Positions 59,664 through 63,532 are shown, counted from the stretch's first letter. The stretch: 64,000 bases of DNA from Bacillaceae bacterium (GCA_017656255.1 JACDOE010000001.1:497205-561204); one strand, 5' to 3'. Numbers and translations are program-made. Notes: generated from the letters alone by a model not told the origin.

Positions 59664-59948
59664 TTAAACAGCATAAATGGAAAAATTTCCTCTTCCAAAC
59701 AGCGATTTATAATATTCAATGTTGATCGTATTCAGTTGTCCGGCGATGGATTCATCGATCAGTAAGGTGATCCCTTCCACTTCTTCGACAACATCTCGAT
59801 CCCGTTTTGACTCTTCCAGAGCCATGACAAAATTGGGACCTCCTCAGCCAAAGCCCTGGACATCGATTCGAATGTAGTAATCTGTTTTACCGTGTTCCTG
59901 CAGGATATTTCTTAATTCTTTCGCTGCATCTCTGGATATGTTAACCAT
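59664..59948 (-). CDS. HesB/IscA-like protein with in-frame TGA at the conserved first Cys position (candidate selenoprotein)
   Basis: Minus-strand translation gives MVNISRDAAKELRNILQEHGKTDYYIRIDVQGFG-[TGA]-GGPNFVMALEESKRDRDVVEEVEGITLLIDESIAGQLNTINIEYYKSLFGRGNFSIYAV. It aligns with IscA (RLGVRTSGCSGMAY...VVVDGKSLQFLDGTQLDF), with the TGA (59844-59846) exactly at the GCSG cysteine. Absent from the ORF track because the TGA splits it into two sub-60-aa pieces. Confidence 0.55.
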
Positions 59949-59969
59949 TGTTTTTCAGCCCTGTCTCCT

Positions 59970-60353
59970 TTATTTTGCTGCATCGATTGCCTGCATCAAA
60001 TTTTGCTCAACGCGCTCTGCGGTTTCACGCAGTGACGAATCATCCACCATGTTGATCAGTTGAGTAGGTTTCGGCATGCCGATGTAGTTTTGTCCGTCTT
60101 TTTCATAGACGACAATCTTACACGGAAGAAAATATCCCACCATGGAATTAGTCGTCAACACCTTGTTCGCTTCCCCCGGACTGCACACTTCAAGAACCCG
60201 GTAAGGTTGTTGAAAATCGAAACCTTTGTTTTGCAGAGTTGCCGTAATGTCAAAATCCCAGAGGATCCCGAACTTTCGCTCCTTCAATGTGGCTTCCAGT
60301 GCTTTGACCGCTTCATCCAGACTCTTGTCGGTCGTAACGGTATAATGAAACAT
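59970..60353 (-). CDS. DUF302-domain protein
   Basis: 127 aa with a DUF302-like fold pattern. Sits between the HesB-like ORF and the TusA gene. Confidence 0.55.
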   Translation of the reverse strand: MFHYTVTTDKSLDEAVKALEATLKERKFGILWDFDITATLQNKGFDFQQPYRVLEVCSPGEANKVLTTNSMVGYFLPCKIVVYEKDGQNYIGMPKPTQLINMVDDSSLRETAERVEQNLMQAIDAAK

Positions 60354-60477
60354 GTGATGACCTCCTATCTGAATCCGGCATAAGACTATAAGACAGTATT
60401 ATGAGTCAAACACCGGTTTTCGTTGTATAATGTAGAAAAGAAAGGACACCGGTTAAGATGCCCTTTCTTTTAACCTC

Positions 60478-60705
60478 TTAATTTTTGCGTACATAGAACT
60501 TGTATACGCCATCTTCTTCTTCGTGTTTAATCAATTCATGATTCGTTTGCTTGACCCAGCTTTGAAAATCTTTTACAGAACCTTTGTCCGTAGACAAAAG
60601 CTCCATTACCTGGCCGGGCTCCATGGAATCGATGGCTTTTTTAGCCTTCACAACAGGCATCGGACAGGAAAGTCCTTTTGCATCTACCGTTTGATCCACT
60701 TTCAT
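60478..60705 (-). CDS. TusA-like sulfurtransferase
   Basis: CPxP motif (GLSCPMPVVKAKKAI). 75 aa. Confidence 0.8.
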   Translation of the reverse strand: MKVDQTVDAKGLSCPMPVVKAKKAIDSMEPGQVMELLSTDKGSVKDFQSWVKQTNHELIKHEEEDGVYKFYVRKN

Positions 60706-60736
60706 CTAGATTCCCTCCCTGGATATGTTATTTATG

Positions 60737-61870
60737 TTATGCGGTGTGATGAACCGCGCAACGATTAGGTCCGATTTCCAGCTCAACCGCTTCTTCGCTG
60801 GAAGGAGTCAATTCACCACGGTTAATGCCAACGATTTTTTCAAAGTTCGGCGGTTTAACCGAAGATGCAGATTTTTCAACTTCTGCCAGGAAAGCATCTT
60901 TATCCGTGGTTTGCATAATTTCATTGTTTTTACGGATGTTACCCAGTGTTTCCCCAACGATACCGTTGTCTGCCATCTCAGACTTGATGTCCGCAAAGTG
61001 AGCCGGCAATACCAGTACATCATCGGCAATTTCAGCAATTTTTTCAAATACGGTGTTGTACAGATCCTGAGCCCACTCCTTAACTTTACCACCGAGGTCC
61101 GGACGTCCCAGTCCGCCTACGAAAATGGTGTCTCCGGAAAGCAGGTACTTGTCATTGATGAAGAAAGATACACTACCCGGCGTGTGTCCCGGTGTTTTCA
61201 CAGCGAGCACTTCTACTTTGACATTGTTAAACTTGATTTCATCGTAATCTTCAAGTGCTTCGTGATCATAGTTGGCCCCTTCACTCTTCATCAGGTAGTA
61301 TTTAGCTCCGGTTTTTTCTACCAGGTCACGGGCACCGGAAATGTGGTCGGCATGAAGGTGAGAGTCCAAAATGTGTGTAATTTTGGCTCCGTCTTTTTCA
61401 GCAAGTTGAATGTATTCATCAACGTGACGAGCAGGGTCTAAGACAAGTGCTTCCCCATCGGATACAACCACATAGGACAGGCACCCTTTGGAAACACGGT
61501 TGACCTGATACAGTTTGAAGTTATCTTCTTCAACAACCGGAGTGGCATAATAGTACTGGGACCATTCTTTCATGCCGCCTTGCAGGTAGGAAGCATCAAG
61601 CCCCGCTTCTACCAGCTGATCAGCGACGAATTTGGAAGATCCTTCCTTGGCACAGACCACCAGAATCGGTTTATCTTTCGGCAGTTTATCGAGATGTGCC
61701 TCAGTTCCGTCAAGGAAATCGAAATAAGGGATATTAAGGCTTGTTACCGTTTTCCCTTCAATTTTCCAGTCATTGTACTCCTCTTCATTCCGAACATCGA
61801 GAATGAAGACGTCTTTTTTGGCCAGGATGTCCTTAAACACCTGATCGGAAGTCACCATTTTTGCACTCAT
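60737..61870 (-). CDS. Rhodanese-like domain fused to MBL-fold persulfide dioxygenase-type hydrolase (YrkH/CstB-like)
   Basis: N-terminal rhodanese-like fold (FILDVRNEEEY). C-terminal MBL motifs (HLHADHISG, TPGHTPGS). Gene order matches B. subtilis yrkEFHI and S. aureus cst clusters. Confidence 0.7.
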   Translation of the reverse strand: MSAKMVTSDQVFKDILAKKDVFILDVRNEEEYNDWKIEGKTVTSLNIPYFDFLDGTEAHLDKLPKDKPILVVCAKEGSSKFVADQLVEAGLDASYLQGGMKEWSQYYYATPVVEEDNFKLYQVNRVSKGCLSYVVVSDGEALVLDPARHVDEYIQLAEKDGAKITHILDSHLHADHISGARDLVEKTGAKYYLMKSEGANYDHEALEDYDEIKFNNVKVEVLAVKTPGHTPGSVSFFINDKYLLSGDTIFVGGLGRPDLGGKVKEWAQDLYNTVFEKIAEIADDVLVLPAHFADIKSEMADNGIVGETLGNIRKNNEIMQTTDKDAFLAEVEKSASSVKPPNFEKIVGINRGELTPSSEEAVELEIGPNRCAVHHTA

Positions 61871-61956
61871 TTGAACCTCTCCTTTTCTCTATAAAGATTT
61901 AACCTTTTTATCCACGATTCTTTTGTTCTATTCTTTTATTCCATGACATCAGACTT

Positions 61957-62352
61957 TTAGAAAGTAACGGTTACGTCGGCATCATAGGCAAAATCAAGGA
62001 AAGTAGCGGCTCCGCCGACTTCAATACCGTCTACAAAATCTTCCTTCTCCAGTCCCATAACATCCATGGTCATCTGGCAGGCGATGAATTTCACGCCGGA
62101 TTCTTTTGCAACTTCAAGAAGTTCACTGATGCTGGGCACCCCTGCATTTTTAAATCCTTCCATGAAGTGTTCTTTACCAGGTCCCATGCTTAACTGCTTA
62201 TGTGCTTCTTTATGAATGATATTCAGTCCTTCGAAAGTGAAGAAGATCTCTACTTCTGCATCGGTTGCTGCCGCAGCAGTTCCGATATTCAATGCTTTAT
62301 AAGCGTCATCCAATCCACCAGAGCTTGCAATAATTGCTACTTTTTTTGCCAT
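61957..62352 (-). CDS. DsrE/DsrF-like sulfur-relay family protein (YrkE-like)
   Basis: KVAIIASSGGLD...FIACQMTMD pattern of DsrE-like proteins. AAGGAGAGG RBS before MAKKV. Confidence 0.65.
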   Translation of the reverse strand: MAKKVAIIASSGGLDDAYKALNIGTAAAATDAEVEIFFTFEGLNIIHKEAHKQLSMGPGKEHFMEGFKNAGVPSISELLEVAKESGVKFIACQMTMDVMGLEKEDFVDGIEVGGAATFLDFAYDADVTVTF

Positions 62353-63014: not shown

Positions 63015-63040
63015 TCGTTTCCATCCTCCTTATACGATCC

Positions 63041-63358
63041 TTATTCTACATCTCCGGTCCAGGCCATCATGCCACCGACCATGTTTTTCAAATTTTTAAA
63101 GCCCTGTTGTGACAGGAATTCACAGGCCATTCCACTGCGGTTTCCACTCCGGCAGATCATAATTGTCTCTTGATTCGGATCAATCTCAGAGGCTCTTGCT
63201 GCGATTTCTGAGAGCGAAATCAGTTTCGCACCGGGTATATGGCCGCTTGCATATTCATCCGGTTCACGAACATCAATCAGCTGAACCGGTTTTCCACTTT
63301 CAATCATCTGTTTGACTTCGTCAGGAGTGATGTTTTCCCATTTCTGATCTACAAACAT
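63041..63358 (-). CDS. Single-domain rhodanese (thiosulfate sulfurtransferase-like)
   Basis: Active-site loop CRSGNRSGMA. GGAGGAGG RBS. Confidence 0.8.
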   Translation of the reverse strand: MFVDQKWENITPDEVKQMIESGKPVQLIDVREPDEYASGHIPGAKLISLSEIAARASEIDPNQETIMICRSGNRSGMACEFLSQQGFKNLKNMVGGMMAWTGDVE

Positions 63359-63400
63359 CTGTTGTCACCTCCTCCTATCCCGTTACCTTTAAAATACTAT

Positions 63401-63416
63401 TACCCCTATGGGTACA
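63401..63416. promoter_or_regulatory. CsoR/CstR-type operator-like palindrome (site 2)
   Basis: + strand TTACCCCTATGGGTAC (minus strand GTACCCATAGGGGTAA): a G/C-tract pseudo-palindrome of the ATACC...GGGGTAT type. It lies ~45 nt upstream of the rhodanese start. Confidence 0.4.
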
Positions 63417-63475
63417 TGGTAAAGTATAATGAATGAGTGTCAAGTTTAGAAGTTTTTTGGTTTCTCTCTATACAT

Positions 63476-63493
63476 ATACCCCCATAGGTATCT
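63476..63493. promoter_or_regulatory. CsoR/CstR-type operator-like palindrome (site 1), overlapping the predicted transcription start
   Basis: Minus strand ATACCTATGGGGGTATAT, immediately downstream of the -10 hexamer. Confidence 0.45.
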
Positions 63494-63503
63494 TCAAGAA
63501 TTA

Positions 63504-63532
63504 TTATAGGTGTGATTAATGTCATTGTCAAT
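63504..63532 (-). promoter_or_regulatory. Sigma-A promoter for the rhodanese/TusA/DsrE/PDO operon (TTGACA-N17-TATAAT)
   Basis: Minus strand TTGACAatgacattaatcacaccTATAAT, perfect consensus hexamers. Confidence 0.7.

What the first reader, a model, noticed from the sequence alone, without database searches (positions are those of the whole stretch)
59664..63532. Persulfide/sulfur-relay gene cluster (rhodanese, TusA-rhodanese, DsrE-like, rhodanese-MBL dioxygenase, TusA, DUF302) with the HesB-like UGA gene at its end
The gene content and order resemble B. subtilis yrkEFHI and the S. aureus cst system, with two extra downstream genes (DUF302, then the UGA-containing IscA-like ORF). The operon has a consensus sigma-A promoter with two CsoR/CstR-type palindromes, yet no CsoR/CstR-family regulator gene is present in the window. 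A selenoprotein in a sulfane-sulfur handling operon suggests combined S/Se trafficking. This combination has not, to my knowledge, been described.
Basis: partly seen in the sequence, partly recalled or inferred. Interest (0 to 1): 0.65.

Follow-up and report, generated by a model that had tools for sequence, protein, structure and literature searches.

The report
Persulfide-response gene cluster with a selenoprotein
This is a Bacillus-type sulfur-detoxification gene cluster of a known kind, whose repressor gene lies just past the window edge, and its selenium-containing HesB-like protein recurs under the same predicted repressor in related bacteria, which gives this long-unexplained protein family a testable role.

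Summary
Seven genes lie on the minus strand at 63358..59664: rhodanese, TusA-rhodanese, DsrE, rhodanese-persulfide dioxygenase, TusA, DUF302 and a HesB/IscA-like ORF with an in-frame UGA. A perfect sigma-A promoter and two CstR-type palindromes precede them.

- **Known kind:** the first five genes form a yrk/cst-type persulfide cluster, characterised experimentally in B. licheniformis.
- **Regulator:** the "missing" regulator is a window-edge artefact. A CstR-type gene (Cys31/Asn56/Cys60) sits about 440 bp beyond the window, inside a second, paralogous cluster.
- **Operon:** a strong terminator-like hairpin separates tusA from DUF302 and HesB, so a single seven-gene operon is doubtful.
- **Selenoprotein:** the UGA gene belongs to the known HesB-like selenoprotein family (UxGP motif). 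All 13 relatives keep TGA in the same column and the same downstream hairpin. Three have selD beside them, and two of those also selA, selB and tRNA-Sec.

New here: in Bacillaceae this selenoprotein repeatedly lies in, or carries its own, CstR-box promoter. That places it in a predicted persulfide regulon. The DUF302-HesB pairing itself is not conserved.

A second, conserved small ORF with two UGA codons lies just upstream.

Not tested: Sec machinery in this genome, transcription and biochemistry.

The parts
63583..63610 (-). Intrinsic terminator ending the upstream (cluster 1) transcription unit
   Evidence: 11-bp stem followed by a T-run.
63503..63531 (-). Promoter P1: TTGACA-17 nt-TATAAT
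   Evidence: 12 of 12 consensus matches.
63476..63491 (-). CstR-type operator OP1 (ATACCTATGGGGGTAT), just downstream of the P1 -10 hexamer
   Evidence: Exact TACC-N6-GGTA match. It resembles the published S. mitis cst operator.
63416..63443 (-). Promoter-like site P2: TTGACA-16 nt-TACCAT
   Evidence: 10 of 12 consensus matches.
63401..63414 (-). CstR-type operator OP2 (TACCCATAGGGGTA)
   Evidence: Exact match. Virgibacillus locus L011 has the same two-box layout upstream of its rhd gene.
63041..63358 (-). Single-domain rhodanese, 105 aa (CRSGNRS active-site loop)
   Evidence: PF00581, E=3.9e-23.
62436..63014 (-). TusA-rhodanese fusion, 192 aa (YrkF-like; CPMP and CRTGNRS motifs)
   Evidence: PF01206 and PF00581.
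61957..62352 (-). DsrE-family sulfur carrier (YrkE-like). The likely start is the ATG at 62352 (131 aa, GGAGAGG ribosome-binding site); the longest ORF starts at 62382.
   Evidence: PF13686 and PF02635. The gene call in L001 is 131 aa. PDB relatives are 3PNX and 2QS7.
60737..61870 (-). Rhodanese + metallo-beta-lactamase-fold persulfide dioxygenase, 377 aa (YrkH/CstB-like; HLHADH metal motif)
   Evidence: PF00581 and PF00753. Best PDB matches are 3TP9, 3R2U, ETHE1 4CHL and BpPRF 5VE3.
60478..60705 (-). TusA, 75 aa (YrkI-like)
   Evidence: PF01206, E=7e-28.
60436..60471 (-). Terminator-like or attenuator hairpin after tusA (15-bp stem whose 3' arm is a U-tract)
   Evidence: The 127-nt spacer folds at -36.1 kcal/mol, z=-3.95, with 0 of 200 shuffles as stable. 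A hairpin also follows the paralogous tusA of cluster 1. A hairpin is reported after yrkI in B. licheniformis.
59970..60353 (-). DUF302 protein, 127 aa
   Evidence: PF03625, E=1.6e-19. A close solved homologue, 1Q9U, is uncharacterised. A 60%-identical copy ends the equivalent Virgibacillus cluster.
59664..59948 (-). HesB/IscA-like selenoprotein candidate, 94 aa. Sec35 is encoded by TGA at 59846..59844 (motif U-G-G-P). It has no Cys residues and no C-terminal CxC.
   Evidence: TGA is conserved in the same column in 13 of 13 relatives.
59808..59824 (-). SECIS-like hairpin UGGCUCU-GGA-AGAGUCA. The stem starts 19 nt after the UGA and the apical loop lies 26 nt after it.
   Evidence: In 13 sequences, 94% of cells pair, against 33-55% in slid controls. 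Synonymous sites are invariant.
59637..59659 (-). Intrinsic terminator after the HesB-like gene
   Evidence: 9-bp stem followed by a T-run.
63650..63847 (-). Small 65-codon ORF with two in-frame TGA codons (63766..63764 and 63715..63713) and a C-terminal hydrophobic helix. It is the last gene of the upstream trx-rhd-cstR-methyltransferase unit. It lies outside the finding's coordinates but within the same system.
   Evidence: Its ATG overlaps the methyltransferase stop codon (ATGA). It is conserved with both TGAs in L021-23, L024, L025 and L026.
63844..64000 (-). 3' end of a UbiE/ArsM-like SAM methyltransferase, 190 aa, which runs off the window. The CstR gene lies immediately beyond it (about 64703..64443 in extrapolated window coordinates).
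   Evidence: L001 8943-9515 and 8656-8916.

Best explanation
The region is the second of two tandem, paralogous yrk/cst-type clusters that detoxify sulfane sulfur (persulfides). It comes from a Bacillaceae chromosome.

**Proposed regulation (inferred).** A CstR-type repressor is encoded about 1.1 kb upstream, just outside the window, in the unit trx-rhd-cstR-methyltransferase-small UU ORF. I infer that it binds the two ATACC-N6-GGTAT boxes at the strong sigma-A promoter. On persulfidation of its Cys31/Cys60 pair it would release the DNA.

**Proposed sulfur relay (inferred from the families).** Derepression yields rhodanese, TusA-rhodanese, DsrE, a rhodanese-persulfide dioxygenase and TusA. These relay sulfane sulfur between active-site cysteines and oxidise it to sulfite or thiosulfate.

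**DUF302 and HesB-like genes.** A terminator-like hairpin after tusA probably attenuates transcription into these two genes. They would then be expressed by read-through.

**The HesB-like protein.** It is a real selenoprotein of the known HesB-like family (UxGP motif). In this Bacillaceae subfamily the selenocysteine is the only redox-active residue, because there is no Cys and no C-terminal CxC. It therefore cannot hold an Fe-S cluster the way IscA does. My preferred mechanism is that the selenol acts as a highly nucleophilic acceptor, carrier or reductant of sulfane sulfur through a Se-S(n) adduct. It would work with the TusA, DsrE, rhodanese, thioredoxin or CoA-persulfide-reductase partners that recur next to it.

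**What is shown and what is inferred.** Shown: gene identities, operator and promoter sequences, the presence of the regulator, conservation of the UGA and hairpin, and the recurrent CstR-box context. Inferred: CstR binding, read-through transcription, Sec insertion in this organism and the chemistry.
For: - **Gene families:**
- **Source contig:** it shows an upstream paralogous cluster (53-71% identity) and a PF02583 regulator.
- **Regulator type:** it aligns with S. pneumoniae CstR (7MQ1) with Cys/Asn/Cys at the sensing positions and no His (PMC8643695).
- **Boxes in this locus:** they occur only at promoters. There are two before rhd and one (ATACTCCTAGGGGTAT) overlapping the -10 hexamer before trx-rhd-cstR.
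- **Precedent:** the B. licheniformis YrkD cluster is experimentally repressed by YrkD and induced by sulfane sulfur. A hairpin after yrkI lowers downstream expression (PMC9918477).
- **UGA and hairpin:** TGA lies in the same column in 13 of 13 sequences from Bacillaceae and Clostridia. The hairpin is conserved with invariant synonymous sites and some covariation.
- **Sec machinery in relatives:** selD lies next to the homologue in L024, L025 and L026; L024 and L025 also carry selB, tRNA-Sec and selA.
- **Context of the HesB(U) gene in relatives:**
  - Virgibacillus: inside a box-preceded operon of Rhd-MBL, TusA, TauE, HesB(U), a rhodanese-like gene and CstR.
  - Robertmurraya: after TauE.
  - L016 and L017: after Rhd and a CoADR-Rhd-TusA fusion, with boxes in both promoters.
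  - L021: after Grx-DsrE, with boxes.
  - Bacillus sp. T3: stand-alone, with a box inside the spacer of its own promoter. L015 also has its own box-bearing promoter.
Against: - No sel genes or tRNA-Sec were found in the window or in L001. Sec decoding in this genome is therefore unproven.
- The hairpin after tusA and the lack of any box or good promoter before DUF302 leave CstR control of HesB in this locus inferential.
- In L024, L025 and L026 the gene sits with sel genes. L024 and L025, the two checked, have no CstR box (L026 was not checked). L003 is next to zur/znu. L013 and L018 have only one-mismatch boxes.
- The protein scores below the curated cut-offs of TIGR01911 (56.5 against 66.35) and NF038090 (48 against 85) when U is replaced by C.
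- The SECIS fold of the single sequence is only modestly better than shuffles (z=-1.67).
Confidence: 0.7

Rival explanations
1. DUF302 and HesB(U) form an independent unit that merely abuts the sulfur operon. On this view HesB(U) is cargo of a horizontally moving Sec island and has no functional tie to persulfide handling.
For: - A terminator-like hairpin follows tusA.
- The DUF302-HesB pairing is unique to this locus.
- In L024, L025 and L026 the gene order is selD, small UU ORF, HesB(U). L024 and L025, the two checked, have no CstR box.
- The L003 and L013 contexts are unrelated to sulfur.
- An integrase gene flanks the tandem clusters.
Against: - Stand-alone copies carry a CstR-type box inside their own promoters (L010 and L015).
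- In Virgibacillus, L016 and L021 the gene lies inside box-preceded sulfur operons.
- An exact box is rare by chance (0.11 per 20 kb).
Confidence: 0.12
2. HesB(U), possibly with the small UU protein and the TusA, rhodanese and methyltransferase genes, would handle selenide or selenopersulfide. The purpose would be supply to SelD or detoxification, not sulfane-sulfur handling.
For: - The gene is adjacent to selD in three loci.
- A TusA + YeeE/YedE neighbourhood occurs in the Peptococcaceae MAG.
- TusA/YedF- and rhodanese-type NCBIfam models tied to selenium give weak hits.
- A UbiE/ArsM-like methyltransferase recurs in these clusters.
- From my own memory, not checked here: S. aureus CstR also reacts with selenite.
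Against: - A selenoprotein required for Sec synthesis would be circular.
- Selenoprotein genes commonly sit next to sel genes simply through co-inheritance.
- The regulator and the enzymes are of the persulfide type.
- No direct evidence was obtained.
Confidence: 0.12
3. HesB(U) is an A-type Fe-S cluster carrier that repairs or assembles clusters damaged by sulfide or reactive sulfur species.
For: It matches PF01521 and TIGR00049. The Sec aligns with the first cluster-ligand Cys of IscA (GGGCSG in L004-L009).
Against: The Bacillaceae subfamily lacks the two C-terminal ligand cysteines and has no other Cys. Canonical [2Fe-2S] ligation is therefore impossible for a monomer.
Confidence: 0.08
4. 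The UGA is a genuine stop codon, making the gene a pseudogene, or it is read at low efficiency as Trp. No selenoprotein would then be made in this organism.
For: No Sec machinery was seen in 84 kb of this genome. Database translations show W at this position. From my own knowledge, Bacillus can misread UGA as Trp.
Against: - The W residues are artefacts of UGA=Trp translations. P0100 reads straight through its own TGA stop, and the DNA of all loci has TGA.
- Both halves of the ORF are conserved in frame across genera.
- The hairpin is conserved with invariant synonymous sites.
- sel genes lie beside three homologues.
Confidence: 0.05

Closest known systems
Bacillus yrkD-yrkEFHIJ-ydfQ cluster (B. 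licheniformis MW3; homologous to the B. subtilis yrk locus)
   Same: - It has a CstR-like repressor (YrkD), DsrE (YrkE), TusA-rhodanese (YrkF), rhodanese-PDO (YrkH) and TusA (YrkI).
- The paralogous upstream cluster here also has a thioredoxin (YdfQ).
- A hairpin follows the TusA gene.
- Operators lie at the promoters, and sulfane sulfur is the inducer (PMC9918477).
   Different: - The order of the F and E genes is swapped, and an extra single-domain rhodanese comes first.
- This locus has no TauE, NreBC, sqr or pdo.
- The regulator sits at the end of a duplicated cluster instead of at the head.
- This locus adds DUF302, a methyltransferase, a HesB-like selenoprotein and a small double-UGA ORF.
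S. aureus, E. faecalis and streptococcal cst operons (CstR, CstA, CstB, CoAPR, RhdA/B)
   Same: - The CstR has the C-N-C sensing site.
- The operator resembles the S. mitis cst operator.
- A PDO-rhodanese protein is related to 3R2U.
- The TusA, DsrE and rhodanese functions are the ones reported as fused in CstA (PMC9918477).
   Different: The domains are separate proteins here. The PDO has an N-terminal rhodanese (YrkH architecture), not the CstB architecture. There is no SQR or TauE in this unit. The selenoprotein is not known in those systems.
HesB-like selenoprotein family (TIGR01911 / NF038090; Kryukov, Zhang and Gladyshev)
   Same: It has the IscA/HesB fold, Sec in place of the first conserved Cys, the UxGP motif and a downstream SECIS hairpin.
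   Different: It falls below both curated cut-offs. It lacks any C-terminal Cys or Gly-rich tail. It occurs in aerobic Bacillaceae, whereas most published HesB-like selenoproteins I saw come from anaerobes. It is linked to CstR boxes. The family's function is listed as unknown in the 2026 review.
DUF302 proteins in sulfur-oxidation loci (sox clusters of Acidithiobacillia)
   Same: A DUF302 gene is embedded in a sulfur-compound gene cluster (PMC5037610).
   Different: Those proteins are about 191 aa, and that paper assumes them to be periplasmic. This one is 127 aa with no evident signal peptide (not formally tested) and is closest to the uncharacterised 1Q9U.

Membership tests
CstR-regulated cst/yrk persulfide-response cluster | A CsoR-family repressor with the two sensing cysteines and no Cu-ligand His (x-C-x-C) | tested here: met
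   The 86-aa PF02583 protein at L001 8656-8916 has C31, N56 and C60. These align with C30, N55 and C59 of S. pneumoniae CstR 7MQ1. The gene lies about 440 bp outside the window.
CstR-regulated cst/yrk persulfide-response cluster | A CstR-type pseudo-palindromic operator at the promoter | tested here: met
   ATACCTATGGGGGTAT and TACCCATAGGGGTA follow the P1 and P2 promoters. They are similar to the S. mitis operator ATATACCCTTATGGGGTATAT, which has one base more between its TACC and GGTA arms.
CstR-regulated cst/yrk persulfide-response cluster | Sulfurtransferases (rhodanese, TusA, DsrE) plus a persulfide dioxygenase | tested here: met
   Pfam hits lie above their cut-offs. Active-site Cys motifs are present. 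The PDO matches 3TP9, 3R2U and ETHE1.
CstR-regulated cst/yrk persulfide-response cluster | CstR binding and induction by sulfide or sulfane sulfur | not testable with these tools
   This needs EMSA and expression data.
HesB-like selenoprotein (TIGR01911, motif UxGP) | IscA/HesB domain with an in-frame UGA at the first conserved Cys, in a UxGP motif | tested here: met
   PF01521 spans residues 2-83 across the UGA. The motif is GFG-U-GGP. Cys homologues show GGGCSG at the same place. The motif is listed in PMC13188914.
HesB-like selenoprotein (TIGR01911, motif UxGP) | Score above the curated model cut-off | tested here: not met
   TIGR01911 gives 56.5 bits against 66.35, and NF038090 gives 48 against 85, with U replaced by C. 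The Bacillaceae relatives score even lower. This is therefore a divergent subfamily, not a member recognised by the models.
HesB-like selenoprotein (TIGR01911, motif UxGP) | A bacterial SECIS hairpin at the proper distance, with G in the apical loop | tested here: met
   A 7-8 bp stem has a GGA loop 26 nt after the UGA. It is conserved in 13 sequences with 94% of cells paired.
HesB-like selenoprotein (TIGR01911, motif UxGP) | Sec-decoding machinery (selA, selB, selC, selD) in the same genome | not tested
   None was found in the window or L001, and about 30 of roughly 55 window genes were scanned. selD is present beside homologues in L024, L025 and L026, and selB, tRNA-Sec and selA in L024 and L025. 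The rest of this genome could not be reached.
A-type Fe-S carrier (IscA/SufA/ErpA) | Three cluster-ligand cysteines (one central plus a C-terminal CxC) | tested here: not met
   Only the Sec is present. The protein has no Cys and ends ...GNFSIYAV. The same holds in the Bacillaceae relatives.

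The most novel reading that the evidence does not exclude
In a set of aerobic Bacillaceae, the Sec-decoding trait may be kept largely for two small selenoproteins. One is the Cys-free HesB-like protein. The other is a previously unmodelled membrane-anchored protein with two Sec residues (motifs C..S-U-G and I-U-P-G-x-x-V-W-L-L). Together they would form a selenol-based module for handling persulfides or polysulfides (or selenopersulfides), wired into the CstR regulon. 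That would give the first functional assignment to the HesB-like selenoprotein family.
Probability: 0.3. Interest if true: 0.75.

Novelty: new variant of a known kind. Interest (0 to 1): 0.55.

Why it matters
HesB-like proteins are among the most widespread bacterial selenoproteins. A 2016 survey counted 90 in 86 organisms. The 2026 review still lists them among families known mainly from bioinformatics, most with unclear function.

Here a divergent, Cys-free subfamily recurs inside CstR-box operons or carries its own CstR-box promoter. That turns "function unknown" into a testable hypothesis: selenol chemistry on sulfane sulfur. Cultivable strains are available for the test (Bacillus sp. T3, Virgibacillus sp. 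DJP39).

The result would also extend the well-studied cst/yrk persulfide response with a selenium-dependent component. It further flags a second, conserved small double-UGA gene that gene callers miss.

The core five-gene cluster itself is ordinary.

Tried and rejected
- **Word-index protein search.** Searching with the full HesB sequence returned only its own 53-aa fragment.
- **Exhaustive search.** It had to use the 59 aa after the UGA and gave 8 hits. Several showed "W" at the Sec position. I first considered a Trp-containing family. I rejected this once the DNA of every locus showed TGA and P0100 was seen to read through its own stop.
- **Genome scan.** The 3-sequence alignment found only three distant loci.
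- **Metagenome scan.** It returned only canonical Cys-type IscA/ErpA proteins.
- **Sec machinery in the window.** Rfam, ARAGORN and Pfam scans of 30 large ORFs found none. Smaller ORFs were not scanned.
- **Promoter before DUF302.** I looked for a CstR box or sigma-A promoter between tusA and DUF302 and found none.
- **Small double-UGA ORF.** Pfam and NCBIfam searches gave no hit even at E=10. No convincing SECIS follows its first UGA.
- **L026.** I checked whether its 127-aa neighbour is a DUF302 protein; it is not.
- **Methyltransferase.** The NF047649 "methyltransferase/UXPK-star double selenoprotein" hit only reflects the methyltransferase fold (53 bits against a cut-off of 460), so I did not pursue it.

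Full report
**1. The observation**

The seven genes are real and lie on the minus strand.

| Gene | Coordinates | Size |
|---|---|---|
| Rhodanese | 63358..63041 | 105 aa |
| TusA-rhodanese | 63014..62436 | 192 aa |
| DsrE | 62352..61957 (likely start) | 131 aa |
| Rhodanese-metallo-beta-lactamase | 61870..60737 | 377 aa |
| TusA | 60705..60478 | 75 aa |
| DUF302 | 60353..59970 | 127 aa |
| HesB/IscA-like ORF | 59948..59664 | 94 codons |

- The HesB-like ORF has TGA at 59846..59844 in the motif GFG-U-GGPNF.
- All seven pass the Pfam curated cut-offs, and NCBIfam agrees.
- The catalytic Cys motifs are visible in the translations: CRSGNRS, CPMP, CRTGNRS, and HLHADH for the dioxygenase.
- The rhodanese-MBL protein is closest to the solved MBL-rhodanese proteins 3TP9 and 3R2U and to the persulfide dioxygenase ETHE1.

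**2. Promoter and operators**

- A perfect TTGACA-17-TATAAT lies at 63531..63503, and a second promoter-like site (TTGACA-16-TACCAT) at 63443..63416.
- Each is followed by a palindrome: ATACCTATGGGGGTAT and TACCCATAGGGGTA.
- The pattern TACC-N6-GGTA occurs exactly only at these two places in the 20 kb source locus, where 0.11 are expected. The whole window holds three exact matches.
- The boxes resemble the experimentally used S. mitis cst operator ATATACCCTTATGGGGTATAT (PMC8643695).

**3. The "missing" regulator**

An exact-protein look-up recovered the source contig, Logan SRR13776092_570. NCBI names the protein as from a Bacillaceae bacterium MAG, locus tag H0Z33_02955. Just beyond window position 64000 lies a second, paralogous cluster:

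- TusA-rhodanese, DsrE, rhodanese-MBL and TusA, which are 62%, 71%, 60% and 53% identical to the window copies.
- Then thioredoxin, a membrane-anchored rhodanese, a PF02583 regulator and a UbiE/ArsM-like methyltransferase, whose 3' end is window 63844-64000.

The regulator has Cys31, Asn56 and Cys60. These align with C30, N55 and C59 of S. pneumoniae CstR (7MQ1). It is therefore the persulfide-sensing type, not the copper-sensing type with His. A third box (ATACTCCTAGGGGTAT) overlaps the -10 hexamer of a TTGCAA-17-TAATAT promoter in front of trx-rhd-cstR, which suggests autoregulation.

**4. Is it one seven-gene operon?**

- Spacers among the first five genes are short, 26-86 nt.
- Between tusA and DUF302 there are 124 nt containing a 15-bp-stem hairpin whose 3' arm is a U-tract. 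The spacer folds at -36.1 kcal/mol, z=-3.95.
- I found no acceptable sigma-A promoter or CstR box before DUF302.
- The paralogous tusA is also followed by a hairpin.
- In B. licheniformis a hairpin after yrkI is reported to lower downstream expression (PMC9918477).

DUF302 and HesB (21-nt spacer) are thus most likely a read-through, attenuated tail of the operon. This is an inference.

**5. Is the UGA gene a selenoprotein?**

Gene callers truncate it to 53 aa. A profile search found many relatives called as 34-40 aa plus 53-55 aa fragments in Bacillaceae: Bacillus sp. T3, Virgibacillus sp. DJP39, Robertmurraya and Lottiidibacillus. I recovered DNA for 13 distinct sequences, including two Clostridia MAGs.

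- All 13 have TGA in the same column, G-x-G-TGA-G-G-P, with conserved coding sequence on both sides.
- The "W" seen at this position in database proteins is a UGA=Trp translation artefact.
- The stem of a hairpin UGGCUCU-GGA-AGAGUCA starts nineteen nt after the UGA. It is present in every sequence. The third codon positions of GCU-CUG-GAR-GAG-UCA are almost invariant, while neighbouring Gly and Pro wobble positions vary freely.
- In the hairpin, 94% of cells pair against 33-55% in slid controls, with a G-U to U-A double change in one lineage.
- In three relatives the gene lies beside selD. Two of these also carry selB, tRNA-Sec and selA.
- The motif UxGP is that of the published HesB-like selenoprotein family (PMC13188914; PMC1794560).

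Caveats:
- The protein scores below the TIGR01911 and NF038090 cut-offs, so it is a divergent subfamily.
- I could not inspect the rest of this genome for sel genes.

**6. What is new: context of the selenoprotein**

| Locus | Context of HesB(U) |
|---|---|
| Virgibacillus | In an operon of Rhd-MBL, TusA, TauE, HesB(U), a rhodanese-like gene and CstR, preceded by two boxes. The next unit is Rhd, TusA-Rhd, DsrE, Rhd-MBL, TusA, methyltransferase and DUF302, with the same two-box promoter layout as here |
| Robertmurraya | Follows TauE |
| L016/L017 | Follows Rhd and a CoA-disulfide-reductase-Rhd-TusA fusion, with boxes in both promoters |
| L021-23 | Follows Grx-DsrE, with boxes |
| Bacillus sp. 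T3 | Monocistronic, with the box ATACCTACCTGGGTAT exactly filling the 17-nt spacer of its own TTGACT...TATTAT promoter |
| L015 | Own promoter with an overlapping perfect palindrome |
| Lottiidibacillus, L018 | One-mismatch boxes only |
| L024, L025 | No box; the gene sits in a sel island. L026 is the same kind of island but was not checked for boxes |
| L003 | Next to zur/znu |

Most, but not all, Bacillaceae-type copies therefore sit in a predicted CstR regulon. The DUF302-HesB adjacency is unique to this window, so it is not a conserved pair. Literature searches for CstR with selenocysteine or HesB found nothing relevant.

**7. Mechanism**

The core works like the characterised yrk/cst systems. 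CstR is released on persulfidation. Rhodanese, TusA and DsrE relay sulfane sulfur, and the dioxygenase oxidises it (PMC9918477, PMC8643695).

For HesB(U), the Sec aligns with the first Fe-S ligand Cys of IscA. However, the protein has no Cys and no C-terminal CxC, so a canonical A-type carrier role is unlikely. I favour a selenol acceptor, carrier or reductant for sulfane sulfur, at roughly 0.35 for this specific chemistry. The rivals are a selenium-handling role, mere Sec-island cargo, an Fe-S role and a pseudogene.

**8. Noticed in passing**

A 65-codon ORF lies at window 63847..63650. Its ATG overlaps the methyltransferase stop codon. It has two in-frame TGAs and a C-terminal hydrophobic helix. 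It is conserved with both TGAs in L021-23, L024, L025 and L026, and in four database proteins. In three loci the gene order is selD, this ORF, HesB(U). Only the second UGA has a clear SECIS-like hairpin. It has no Pfam or NCBIfam match.

**9. Verdict**

The five-gene core is a known kind. The regulator puzzle dissolves. The selenoprotein family is known. Its recurrent CstR-box linkage in Bacillaceae, and the companion double-UGA ORF, appear to be undescribed and are testable.

Noticed in passing
window 63650-63847 (minus strand); L021 about 3360-3536; L024 about 7635-7784; L025 8001-8197; L026 1350-1585: A conserved small ORF of 49-65 codons has two in-frame TGA codons (motifs C-x3-5-S/T-U-G and I/L-U-P-G-x-x-V-W-L-L) and a C-terminal hydrophobic helix. 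A SECIS-like hairpin GGCUCCU-GG(C/U)-AGGAGC follows the second TGA. In three loci it lies between selD and the HesB-like selenoprotein gene. Here it is the last gene of the trx-rhd-cstR-methyltransferase unit. It has no Pfam or NCBIfam match and may be an unmodelled double selenoprotein.
   Followed up: partly
L001 5295-9515 (just beyond window position 64000): A second, paralogous yrk/cst-type cluster lies in tandem: TusA-Rhd, DsrE, Rhd-MBL, TusA, thioredoxin, TM-rhodanese, CstR and methyltransferase. A phage-type integrase/recombinase gene sits on its far side (L001 4200-5204). No CstR box precedes the first gene. One box precedes trx.
   Followed up: partly
Protein database entries P0003, P0004, P0007, P0008, P0100-P0103: Public metagenome gene calls translate the Sec UGA of these families as Trp, probably through genetic-code-4 models chosen on short contigs. 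P0100 even reads through its own TGA stop. This can mislead homology-based reading of selenoproteins.
   Followed up: yes
L011 13810-14379; L018 932-1501; L024 1900-2511; window 63844-64000: A UbiE/ArsM-like SAM methyltransferase of about 190-205 aa recurs next to the HesB(U) gene or the cst-like genes in several genomes. It could methylate a thiol, sulfide or selenide.
   Followed up: no
L002 10376-11657: In a Peptococcaceae MAG the HesB-like selenoprotein gene is adjacent to a TusA-like gene and a YeeE/YedE-type membrane protein. That pair has been linked to thiosulfate or selenium transport.
   Followed up: no
window 22227-24372 and 24826-26907: Cytochrome oxidase subunits II and I and a DUF255 thioredoxin-domain protein indicate an aerobic lifestyle. 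That is unusual for an organism carrying HesB-like selenoproteins.
   Followed up: no
window 4218-5846 (minus strand): A 542-aa ORF has no Pfam hit at E<=1e-5. It sits between glycosyltransferase genes and an MBL-fold gene.
   Followed up: no
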